Origin: a virus
Taxonomy: Duplodnaviria > Heunggongvirae > Uroviricota > Caudoviricetes
DNA length: 12,923 nucleotides
Virus record (IMG/VR): IMGVR_UViG_3300029079_000072
Coordinates: 1 to 12,923 of that record
Strand: one strand, 5' to 3'
Shown: positions 11,491-12,543 of the stretch, in pieces
How positions within the stretch are numbered: position 1 is the first letter of the stretch
How the letters are laid out: every line of letters starts with the position of its first letter
The notes under the pieces: generated by a model
What the model saw: only the letters and a program-made list of their open reading frames with translations
Databases searched by the model: none
Told to the model about the DNA's origin: nothing
Made by a program: the position numbers and the translations under genes

Positions 11491-11549
11491 GGATATATTA
11501 AATATTCAGCCGCTGTCCCTGGCCCACTAAATACGCACTTTAAGATAAG

Positions 11550-12269
11550 TCAGCCCCGGATGAAGCCAGTAAGCCGGCACTTTTTTAAAGGGTGGAGTAT
11601 TAAAATCACGAAGAAGAGCCTCCCGCACAATTGCATCCTTATCAGCACCACTGGTACGATGTCGCTTTCACGGTACATTGAGCGGATTTTTTCCGCACGC
11701 AACCCCAGCGAACGACGTAATACCGCTTCCGGTAGCGCGTCCGCCACCTGATTGCGGACCGCCCACCAGGATAATTCAGCCAGCGATAATTCCCGTTCCT
11801 GCGAGCCATTCATTGCATGGCGTATGACGTCAATCATCCATGCAAACAGGTTTTGGTGAGCAAGTTGCCCGAGTGATTCGGAGGTCTGGTCGCGCAGCTG
11901 GTTGTCGCAGTGCCAGCACAACACCATTGCGCCGGTACCATAACGGTGAATGACGGTTTCACTGTGGTGATAATCGCCGTGTGGCCACTGGCAGGATTTA
12001 ACATGGCGCAGTAACCAGTCAGACAATGCGCCAGCGCCACCAGCAGCACGAATCACTCGTTCGTCGCTGAAAAATGGCAGTAATGATTTATCCTCCGCCA
12101 GCGGCTGGCGAACGGCAGGAACGACCCCGGACGGCAGATTACGCATGCTTTTCGGTTCCGGCTCCACCAGTACCCGGGTATTGTGGAATACCGGCATGGA
12201 TTCACGGCCCGGCTTAACGATCACCAGCCCGAGTTCCGGTACCAGAACAGGTCGAAGTAATACCCGCAC
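11550..12269 (-). CDS. Prophage protein, possibly YdfU/DUF968-like; last ~35 aa look non-native
   Basis: 239-aa ORF starting at GTG 12267..12269 with GGAGG overlapping the upstream stop. Contains a Cys/His cluster (HGDYHHSETVIHRYGTGAMVLCWHCDNQ). Family assignment is from weak memory. The C-terminal tail ...LCGRLFFVILILHPLKKCRLTGFIRG looks like read-through. Confidence 0.55.
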   Translation of the reverse strand: MRVLLRPVLVPELGLVIVKPGRESMPVFHNTRVLVEPEPKSMRNLPSGVVPAVRQPLAEDKSLLPFFSDERVIRAAGGAGALSDWLLRHVKSCQWPHGDYHHSETVIHRYGTGAMVLCWHCDNQLRDQTSESLGQLAHQNLFAWMIDVIRHAMNGSQERELSLAELSWWAVRNQVADALPEAVLRRSLGLRAEKIRSMYRESDIVPVVLIRMQLCGRLFFVILILHPLKKCRLTGFIRG

Positions 12270-12270
12270 G

Positions 12271-12543
12271 TTACCTCCAGATGCGTTGCTGGAATGTGCG
12301 GGACGGACGCGGTGGGCGTTCAGAGTAAGGAAGCCTGACGGAGATTATCCAGTGACGATAATCGAGGCTGAGGGCTTTCTTAATCTCGTATCCGCGTCTG
12401 CGGTAGTTATGAATTAGCCATTCGGCCTGTTCTTCAGTACATGGTGGGTGTTGGTACCAGTCGGTTTTAAATGCGTGTGAACGCCGCCCATGCCGGATGG
12501 CAAGGTCGGTATCAGAATTGTGAAATTTGGTTTTGTGCGCCAT
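12271..12543 (-). CDS. Small prophage protein (90 aa), possibly Rem-like by position
   Basis: ATG at 12541..12543; stop TAA is 1 nt before the GTG of the next gene (GGAGGTAACGTG), suggesting translational coupling. The Rem assignment rests only on recalled Qin gene order (hokD-rem-ydfU). Confidence 0.5.
   Translation of the reverse strand: MAHKTKFHNSDTDLAIRHGRRSHAFKTDWYQHPPCTEEQAEWLIHNYRRRGYEIKKALSLDYRHWIISVRLPYSERPPRPSRTFQQRIWR

What the first reader, a model, noticed from the sequence alone, without database searches (positions are those of the whole stretch)
11491..12543. Early/late boundary appears collapsed: YdfU-like gene abuts the endolysin with no Q antiterminator, late promoter or holin
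Going from hok toward the lysis genes, one would expect an antiterminator Q, the late promoter region and a holin (often with accessory cargo) before the endolysin. Here the 239-aa gene ends about 60 nt from the endolysin start, and its last ~35 residues look like read-through into unrelated DNA. That pattern fits a second internal deletion joining the 3' end of a ydfU-like gene to the endolysin upstream region. If so, the lysis genes and downstream accessory genes lack their native antitermination-dependent promoter.
Basis: inference. Interest (0 to 1): 0.45.

Follow-up and report, generated by a model that had tools for sequence, protein, structure and literature searches.

The report
Six-kilobase deletion scar in prophage
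A clean 6,017-base deletion in an already crippled lambda-like E. coli prophage removed the late-gene switch (Q and its promoter), three tRNA genes and the holin. It fused half of an early gene to the DNA just upstream of the lysozyme gene, which is ordinary prophage decay.

Summary
The window equals the prophage of E. coli DP051 (NZ_CP156034.1) at 100% identity on both sides of window 11653/11654. It lacks one 6,017-bp block, and the ends are joined at a 2-bp GG microhomology.

The missing block holds:
- codons 207-351 of the DUF968/YdfU-like gene, including its HNH part
- rusA
- a 273-aa Q antiterminator (PF03589), a lambda-pR'-like promoter and a tR'-like terminator
- a DNA methylase
- tRNA-Ile and two tRNA-Arg genes
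- a phage-21-type class II holin (PF04971)
- the first 256 codons of a 297-aa gene lying between holin and lysozyme

The 239-aa ORF is 206 native residues plus a 33-residue out-of-frame tail read from the 3' end of that 297-aa gene. It stops 59 nt before the lysozyme start.

No Q, holin, tRNA or pR'-like motif remains anywhere in the window. The same junction occurs in at least 11 metagenome contigs from six samples, so it is not an assembly artefact. None of 5,426 complete E. coli genomes carries it.

One nuance: the retained lysozyme has the sequence features of a SAR endolysin, and Rz/Rz1 are intact. Lytic capacity is therefore probably silenced by loss of the promoter, not destroyed.

This is an ordinary event of low interest.

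The parts
12711..12923 (-). hok/gef-family toxin gene, with the 5' part of the long ORF cut by the window end. It is the upstream landmark of the region.
   Evidence: PF01848 HOK_GEF, E = 1.6e-22. Annotated hokD in the identical DNA of DP051.
12625..12642 (-). Terminator-like hairpin with a T-run just downstream of hok. Early transcripts would have to read through it to reach the genes below.
   Evidence: AACCCGGTTCGGCGGGTT followed by TTGTTTTTTT. This is a consensus scan only.
12271..12543 (-). Conserved 90-aa phage ORF of unknown function. It is native and unaffected by the deletion.
   Evidence: phrog_1212, E = 2.2e-36. 100% identical to DP051 WP_001329966.1.
11652..12269 (-). The native 206 codons of the DUF968/YdfU-like (HNH-family) early gene. 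These are the N-terminal domain and the first 48 positions of the DUF968 domain.
   Evidence: tblastn of the DP051 351-aa protein: residues 1-206 are 100% identical at window 12269-11652. The identical prefix is 206 residues. PF06147 covers profile positions 1-48 of 171 only.
11653..11654 (.). Deletion junction: a 2-bp GG shared by both parental flanks (microhomology).
   Evidence: The left flank matches to 11654 and the right flank matches from 11653. The three sequences are shown side by side.
11550..11651 (-). 33-codon frameshifted tail plus stop codon of the chimeric 239-aa ORF.
   Evidence: The tail VVLIRMQLCGRLFFVILILHPLKKCRLTGFIRG* differs from the native continuation GEQTATSILKQRTKNL....
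11527..11652 (-). Remnant of a 297-aa gene lying between holin and lysozyme (DUF1327 at its N-terminus, phrog_1085). The last 41 codons plus stop remain, in a different frame from the chimeric ORF.
   Evidence: tblastn: residues 257-297 are 100% identical at 11652-11530. The native-frame translation is given. The full ORF in DP051 is L011 4651-5544 and matches phrog_1085 over positions 1-296 of 296.
11491..11526 (-). Native spacer in front of the lysozyme start. It is unchanged from the intact prophage.
   Evidence: 100% identical to DP051 and to the best-matching of about 400 other E. coli genomes. No stable RNA structure is predicted here, z = +1.47.
10957..11490 (-). Intact lysozyme of the RrrQ/R21 type with an N-terminal SAR-like segment.
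   Evidence: PF00959, E = 2.4e-24. Homologous to the phage 21 lysozyme 3HDE/3HDF and to RrrD 4ZPU. The sequence shows E35-X8-D44-X5-T50 and a Gly/Ala/Ser/Pro-rich stretch Y7-P24.
10002..10475 (-). Rz i-spanin gene, with the embedded Rz1 o-spanin gene at 10064-10249. Both are intact.
   Evidence: PF03245, E = 2e-47. The Rz1 [23 protein letters not shown]... has a lipobox-like VVSAC.

Best explanation
This is the scar of one illegitimate, microhomology-mediated deletion of 6,017 bp inside a lambdoid (Qin/Stx-phage-like) prophage. That prophage had already lost about 16.5 kb of head and tail genes.

The deletion runs from codon 207 of the DUF968/YdfU-like gene to a point 163 nt upstream of the lysozyme ATG. 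It removed:
- the C-terminal (HNH) part of DUF968
- rusA
- the Q antiterminator, its lambda-like late promoter pR' and the tR'-like terminator
- a 65-aa ORF and a DNA methylase
- tRNA-Ile and two tRNA-Arg genes
- a DUF1737 pseudogene and a 53-aa ORF
- a phage-21-type holin
- 256 of the 297 codons of a gene lying between holin and lysozyme

Shown:
- the endpoints, size and content of the deletion
- its polarity (a deletion, not an insertion in the relative)
- that the 239-aa ORF is an accidental chimera

Inferred:
- The lysozyme, Rz/Rz1, the TonB-like cargo gene and Nu1 no longer have Q-dependent late transcription. They can be reached only by read-through from the early-right operon, past the hok terminator, or from weak unrecognised promoters. 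They are therefore probably almost silent.
- The lysozyme has SAR-type features and the spanins are intact, so forced expression should still lyse cells.
- The chimeric protein lacks its nuclease half and is most likely non-functional.
For: - Both flanks are 100% identical, without gaps, to one DP051 prophage and lie 6,017 bp apart there. The junction has a 2-bp GG overlap.
- The content of the missing block comes from RefSeq annotation and was checked here:
  - DUF968 full length, profile positions 1-169 of 171, plus HNHc_6
  - RusA
  - Antiterm PF03589, E = 5e-51
  - N6_N4_Mtase
  - Phage_holin_2_1 PF04971, E = 7e-33
  - DUF1327
- A pR'-like TTGATT-16 nt-TAAATT is followed by AACGATGGG at L011 9150-9108, with a strong hairpin and T-run at 9073-9052 immediately after Q. 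Lambda pR' has AACGAT at +1 to +6 followed by GGG (PMC4005639).
- Polarity: the full-length forms match their family profiles end to end, whereas the window's ORF stops at DUF968 profile position 48 of 171.
- The junction was assembled independently in at least 11 contigs from six ENA samples. Three sequence variants are among them.
- No Q, holin or tRNA genes, pR' motif or minus-strand promoter-like site remain.
- No structured terminator lies between the chimeric stop and the lysozyme.
- SAR endolysins are exported by Sec and can release spontaneously without a holin (PMC9239132).
Against: - Nothing contradicts the deletion itself.
- The expression consequences are untested. The promoter scan is a crude consensus search and could miss weak or non-sigma-70 promoters.
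- DP051 is a relative, not a proven ancestor.
- In some genomes, such as AR_0017, the two flanks sit in different prophages. The modules are therefore mosaic across E. coli.
- L007 shows the same junction in a different upstream context. That could reflect later recombination or metagenome mis-assembly.
Confidence: 0.93

Rival explanations
1. The arrangement is native. Under this reading the 239-aa protein is a natural short DUF968 variant, and this phage type simply places its lysozyme next to the early genes and keeps Q and the holin elsewhere.
For: The exact 239-aa protein recurs in 11 contigs, and many short DUF968 entries share its 90% cluster.
Against: - All exact copies carry the same junction.
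- The listed short cluster members are mostly labelled 'partial' by their source and are probably contig-end fragments.
- The DUF968 and PHROG-96 profiles break off in mid-domain.
- The tail is an out-of-frame reading of another conserved gene's 3' end.
- No Q or holin is present anywhere in the 12.9-kb window, which spans the region from hok to the tail fibre genes.
Confidence: 0.01
2. The junction is an assembly or chimera artefact that joins reads from two prophages.
For: - Every carrier found is a short-read metagenome assembly.
- None of 5,426 complete genomes and none of the GTDB species representatives has the junction.
Against: - The same base-exact junction appears in at least 11 contigs from six samples, including three sequence variants.
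- There is no long repeat at the junction that could mislead an assembler, only 2 shared bases.
Confidence: 0.02
3. The junction arose by illegitimate recombination between two different resident lambdoid prophages, with loss or rearrangement of the chromosome between them. Under this reading it was not a deletion within one prophage.
For: In AR_0017 the right flank (record position 596,625-597,895) and the left flank (1,610,736-1,610,899) lie about 1 Mb apart in different prophages. Lambdoid modules are highly mosaic.
Against: - DP051 has both flanks at 100% identity, collinear and 6 kb apart in one prophage.
- The same prophage already carries the window's other deletion.
- The upstream gene order in contig L005 (QueH, DUF977, HTH, YdaT, repressor) is the same as in DP051.
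- A single intra-prophage deletion is therefore far more parsimonious.
Confidence: 0.04
4. The deletion was retained because it is useful. It disarms the prophage by removing Q, pR' and the holin while keeping cargo genes. Alternatively it rewires the SAR-type lysozyme and spanins to early, repressor-controlled transcription as a domesticated envelope or vesicle module. This reading is compatible with the deletion mechanism and concerns only why the allele persists.
For: - The lysozyme, Rz/Rz1 and the TonB-like gene are intact and identical to those of intact relatives.
- No terminator separates the chimeric ORF from the lysozyme.
- The allele is found in several human-gut samples.
- The DLP12 lysis module is reported to be domesticated and to modulate vesicle production (PMC7918800).
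Against: - There are zero substitutions across 6 kb relative to DP051. The event is therefore recent and gives no signal of selection.
- It is absent from 5,426 complete genomes.
- The chimeric reading frame looks accidental.
- A strong hok terminator lies upstream.
Confidence: 0.08

Closest known systems
Prophage next to potC in E. coli DP051 (NZ_CP156034.1, record about 2,769,124-2,797,500)
   Same: 100% identical over window 1-11654 and 11653-12923. It has the same Nu1-to-J deletion, the same gene order, and the same upstream early region as the carrier contig L005.
   Different: It still has the 6,017-bp block: the DUF968 C-terminus, rusA, Q, pR'/tR', the methylase, three tRNA genes, the holin and the 297-aa gene.
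Late-control region of Stx-converting and other lambdoid phages (for example Stx2a phages LC567834 and AP012536, vB_EcoS-813R8, mEp460)
   Same: The DP051 block is 88-93% identical in pieces to their region running from YdfU-like gene through rusA, Q, DNA methylase, tRNAs, holin and YdfR to the lysozyme.
   Different: Stx phages carry stx and other cargo between Q and the holin. In the window this whole interval is absent.
Qin cryptic prophage of E. coli K-12 (hokD, ydfU, quuQ, essQ, rrrQ). The gene order is from my own knowledge of the K-12 map.
   Same: A defective lambdoid prophage with hokD, a DUF968 gene (ydfU) and an RrrQ-type lysozyme. RefSeq names the DP051 and Eco889 genes hokD and rrrQ.
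   Different: Qin keeps quuQ and essQ between ydfU and rrrQ. Here they are deleted and ydfU is truncated.
Phage 21 pinholin with SAR endolysin, and the DLP12 lysis module
   Same: The lysozyme is homologous to R21 and RrrD. The deleted holin is PF04971, 'P21 holin S'. Cryptic-prophage lysis modules can persist and be expressed (PMC7918800).
   Different: In this window the pinholin partner and the module's promoter are gone.

Membership tests
Deletion derivative of a DP051-type lambdoid prophage | Both flanks are collinear, in the same orientation and near-identical to one intact relative, with extra DNA between them in that relative. | tested here: met
   100% identity over 4,778 bp and 1,271 bp, with 6,017 bp between the flanks in DP051.
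Deletion derivative of a DP051-type lambdoid prophage | Polarity: genes interrupted at the junction are full length in the relative and truncated here. | tested here: met
   DUF968 is 351 aa there, covering profile positions 1-169 of 171, against positions 1-48 of 171 here. The 297-aa ORF matches phrog_1085 over 1-296 of 296 there, against only the last 41 codons here.
DUF968 / YdfU-like HNH proteins (PF06147, PHROG 96) | A complete DUF968 domain including the HNH-like C-terminal part. | tested here: not met
   Only profile positions 1-48 of 171 and 1-207 of 334 are present. The HNHc_6 match, at residues 260-327 of the full-length protein, lies in the deleted part. The ORF is a truncated remnant, not a functional member.
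Lambdoid late-gene switch (Q antiterminator with pR' and tR') | A Q gene (PF03589 or PF06530) in the window. | tested here: not met
   tblastn with the DP051 Q gives no hit at E <= 1. No Pfam Q domain is found in the nine window ORFs scanned.
Lambdoid late-gene switch (Q antiterminator with pR' and tR') | A late promoter with a -10-like pause element (AACGAT followed by GGG, as in lambda) downstream of Q. | tested here: not met
   The motif is present in DP051 at L011 9150-9108 and absent from the window with up to 3 mismatches allowed. No minus-strand sigma-70-like site is found in 9300-12923.
Holin (class II, phage 21 type, PF04971) | A holin gene upstream of the endolysin. | tested here: not met
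   Present in DP051 (PF04971, E = 7e-33). There is no tblastn hit in the window better than E = 0.44. The two small membrane ORFs between R and Rz belong to PHROGs of unknown function.
SAR (signal-anchor-release) endolysin | A lysozyme catalytic triad E-X8-D-X5-T and a weakly hydrophobic N-terminal segment rich in Gly, Ala and Ser. | tested here: met
   E35, D44 and T50 are present. In Y7-P24, 12 of 18 residues are G, A, S or P (sequence). The criteria are as stated in PMC9239132. The protein is homologous to R21 3HDE.
SAR (signal-anchor-release) endolysin | Sec-dependent export, membrane tethering, and release by a pinholin or spontaneously. | not testable with these tools
   This needs expression and fractionation experiments.
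Two-component spanin (Rz/Rz1) | An Rz gene with an embedded lipoprotein gene in the +1 frame. | tested here: met
   PF03245, E = 2e-47, for 10002-10475. The embedded ORF 10064-10249 has the lipobox-like VVSAC.

The most novel reading that the evidence does not exclude
The deletion may not be neutral decay. By removing every terminator-rich late-control element, it would fuse a SAR-type, holin-independent lysozyme, the spanin genes and the TonB-like cargo gene to the repressor-controlled early operon. That would create a virion-free lysis or vesiculation module that fires directly on prophage derepression, and the allele would persist in gut E. coli for that reason.
Probability: 0.05. Interest if true: 0.35.

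Novelty: already known. Interest (0 to 1): 0.1.

Why it matters
It matters little beyond correct annotation.

- The 239-aa ORF should be labelled a truncated, chimeric DUF968 pseudogene.
- The prophage should be labelled doubly deleted and unable to run late transcription.
- The case is a clean, base-resolved example of stepwise prophage decay: first about 16.5 kb of morphogenesis genes, then 6.0 kb holding the late switch and the holin. The intermediate form is still extant in a sequenced isolate.
- The only mildly interesting point is that an intact SAR-type lysozyme and spanin pair survives without its promoter or pinholin.

Tried and rejected
- An exact search for the 37-nt junction in one genome per GTDB species found nothing, so no named source genome emerged.
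- No complete E. coli genome carries the junction. The best single-record hit, WB61, is a different and more degraded Rac-like remnant with its own deletions. I did not use it as the reference.
- Rfam gave nothing in the finding's region.
- The terminator-like site at 11568-11551 was rejected as a real terminator. It has a poor T-run, the region folds no better than shuffled sequence (z = +1.47), and it is native to the intact phage.
- The idea that one of the small membrane ORFs between R and Rz replaces the holin has no support. Both belong to PHROGs of unknown function, and both are also present in relatives that have a canonical holin.
- The reading that the relative carries an insertion was rejected on gene polarity.

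Full report
**What is in the window.** The following genes all lie on the minus strand:
- hok (12711-12923, cut by the window end)
- a 90-aa ORF (12271-12543)
- a 239-aa ORF (11550-12269)
- a lysozyme (10957-11490)
- two small membrane ORFs
- Rz (10002-10475) with embedded Rz1 (10064-10249)
- a TonB_C-domain gene (9364-9744)
- the small terminase subunit Nu1 (7896-8405)
- a fragment of tail protein J (5476-7818)
- lom, a tail fibre gene and a tail fibre assembly gene

**The 239-aa ORF is truncated.**
- Pfam DUF968 matches residues 160-207 only, to profile positions 1-48 of 171.
- PHROG 96 (HNH endonuclease) matches residues 1-207 to profile positions 1-207 of 334.
- In relatives, the homologous gene is 348-352 aa and is followed by rusA and a Q antiterminator. 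In several relatives a DNA methylase comes next. Then come tRNA genes, cargo, a class II holin, a 'YdfR family' gene and the lysozyme.

**Locating the break.**
- Megablast of the right part of the region against 5,426 complete E. coli genomes gives many 100% matches that all begin at window 11653.
- The left part gives about 400 matches, the best at 100% identity, that end at window 11654.
- No complete genome carries the junction.

**A pre-deletion relative.**
- The whole window, searched at once, picks out E. coli DP051 (NZ_CP156034.1). It matches window 1-11654 in one 100%-identical piece.
- Direct blastn shows that window 6877-11654 equals L011 1-4778 and window 11653-12923 equals L011 10794-12064. 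There is no mismatch and no gap.
- The window is therefore the DP051 prophage minus L011 4779-10795, which is 6,017 bp.
- The two parental flanks share only GG at the joint...CACCACTGG|CCAGCGC and ...CTCTCCCGG|TACGATG give ...CACCACTGGTACGATG.
- This is the signature of illegitimate, microhomology-mediated deletion.

**What was lost.** This comes from DP051 annotation, checked with Pfam and by ORF listing:
- codons 207-351 of DUF968, including the stretch that also matches the HNHc_6 nuclease profile
- RusA
- a 273-aa Q protein (PF03589, E = 5e-51)
- a 65-aa ORF
- a DNA methylase
- tRNA-Ile and two tRNA-Arg genes
- a DUF1737 pseudogene and a 53-aa ORF
- a 71-aa holin of the phage 21 type (PF04971, E = 7e-33)
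- codons 1-256 of a 297-aa ORF (L011 4651-5544)

That 297-aa ORF starts with a DUF1327/YdfR domain and matches phrog_1085 end to end.

**The late promoter was in the lost block.**
- Immediately after Q, DP051 has TTGATT-16 nt-TAAATT followed by TGCTCT and AACGATGGG (L011 9150-9108).
- A strong GC hairpin with a T-run follows at 9073-9052.
- Lambda pR' has the sigma-70 pause element AACGAT at +1 to +6, followed by GGG (PMC4005639).
- I read this as the late promoter and its first terminator. That assignment rests on sequence resemblance and is not tested.
- The deleted block is also rich in terminator-like sites: 22 against 8.9 expected in the scanned interval. This fits a region that needs antitermination.

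**The chimeric ORF.**
- Its first 206 residues are identical to the DP051 protein.
- The remaining 33 residues (VVLIRMQLCGRLFFVILILHPLKKCRLTGFIRG) come from reading the last 41 codons of the 297-aa gene in the wrong frame.
- The native frame of that remnant (SGADKDAIVREALLRDFNTPPFKKVPAYWLHPGLTYLKVRI*) is still visible at 11527-11652.
- The tail is therefore not native, and the polarity is clear. The relative has two full-length conserved genes where the window has two fragments, so the window is the derived state.

**Nothing was missed.**
- tblastn of all proteins of the deleted block against the six frames of the window finds only the two expected fragments.
- ARAGORN finds no tRNA genes.
- The pR'-like motif is absent with up to 3 mismatches allowed.
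- The consensus scan finds no sigma-70-like site on the minus strand between 9300 and 12923.

**The junction is real.**
- The exact 239-aa protein is encoded on at least 11 contigs from six ENA metagenome assemblies.
- The samples whose record names state a source are human gut.
- All six retrieved loci align across the junction.
- L008, L009 and L010 are 100% identical to the window.
- L005 and L006 differ from the window in a dense patch in lom and the 3' end of J (4952-5761), plus one substitution in hok at 12767.
- L007 has a 9-bp insertion in the lysozyme's N-terminal segment and a different context upstream of hok: relB/relE and the Kiwa genes KwaA/KwaB.
- The allele therefore circulates and has undergone some later recombination. 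Alternatively, in L007, the contig may mix strains.

**Consequences (inferred).**
- Without Q and pR', the lysozyme, Rz/Rz1, the TonB-like gene and Nu1 have no dedicated promoter.
- The nearest upstream signal on their strand is the hok terminator-like hairpin at 12642-12625.
- Nothing structured separates the chimeric stop from the lysozyme. Any polymerase that transcribes the DUF968 remnant would therefore continue into the lysis genes.

**The lysozyme has SAR-type features.**
- It is homologous to the phage 21 lysozyme and to RrrD.
- It has the E35-X8-D44-X5-T50 triad.
- Its N-terminal stretch Y7-P24 is rich in Gly, Ala, Ser and Pro.
- These are the sequence features of a SAR endolysin. Such enzymes are exported by Sec and can release spontaneously, more slowly, without a holin (PMC9239132).
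- Loss of the holin alone would therefore not abolish lysis. Loss of transcription probably does.

**Comparison with known systems.**
- The intact layout is the standard lambdoid late-control region, shared in pieces at 88-93% identity with Stx-converting phages and phages such as vB_EcoS-813R8 and mEp460.
- It also resembles K-12 Qin (from my own knowledge of the K-12 map).
- Stepwise deletion of cryptic prophages, and retention of lysis modules, are well documented (for example PMC7918800).
- This is an ordinary instance of a known process.

**Verdict.** Interest is low.

Noticed in passing
window 7857 (junction); Nu1 7896-8405, J fragment 5476-7818: This is the other internal deletion. Nu1 and roughly the first 20 codons of the large terminase gene are joined to a C-terminal fragment of tail protein J, with a 1-bp overlap. 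About 16.5 kb (large terminase through most of the tail genes) is missing relative to E. coli Eco889. DP051 shares this junction, so it predates the 6-kb deletion.
   Followed up: partly
L011 4651-5544 (minus); remnant at window 11527-11652: An intact 297-aa ORF lies between the holin and the lysozyme in DP051, Eco889 and ST69. It matches phrog_1085 over its full length, with a DUF1327 N-terminus. RefSeq annotates only the first part, as an incomplete 'YdfR family' pseudogene, which is probably a mis-annotation.
   Followed up: partly
window 9364-9744 (minus): A TonB C-terminal-domain protein is encoded downstream of Rz/Rz1, where lambda carries bor. PHROGs labels its family 'Rz-like spanin' (phrog_1267), which looks like a label given by position, not by function.
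   Followed up: no
window 1090-1288 (minus): A strong Rfam hit to IS009 (RF02111, 225 bits, full length) lies inside the tail fibre assembly gene.
   Followed up: no
window 10618-10800 and 10472-10603 (minus): Two small ORFs, each with a hydrophobic (putative membrane) stretch, lie between the lysozyme and Rz (phrog_1115 and phrog_4906, unknown function). They are also present in relatives that have a canonical holin.
   Followed up: partly
L007 (ENA ERZ1741937 NODE_207), corresponding to window about 11430-11461 and beyond 12880: This contig has the same deletion junction. It also has a 9-bp insertion, giving three extra residues in the SAR-like segment of the lysozyme (180 aa). Its upstream context is different: relB/relE, hokD, a transposase and the Kiwa defence genes KwaA/KwaB. 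Later recombination or a mixed-strain contig could explain this.
   Followed up: partly
window 4952-5761 (lom and 3' end of J) compared with L005/L006: All but one of the roughly 85 differences between the window and contigs L005/L006 fall in this 800-bp patch. The remaining one is a substitution in hok at 12767. The rest of the 11.4 kb is identical. This is a localised recombination patch in the surface-exposed Lom and the J C-terminus.
   Followed up: no
window 324-992 (plus): A class I SAM-dependent methyltransferase gene lies on the opposite strand beyond the tail fibre assembly genes. This is a typical moron or cargo position.
   Followed up: no
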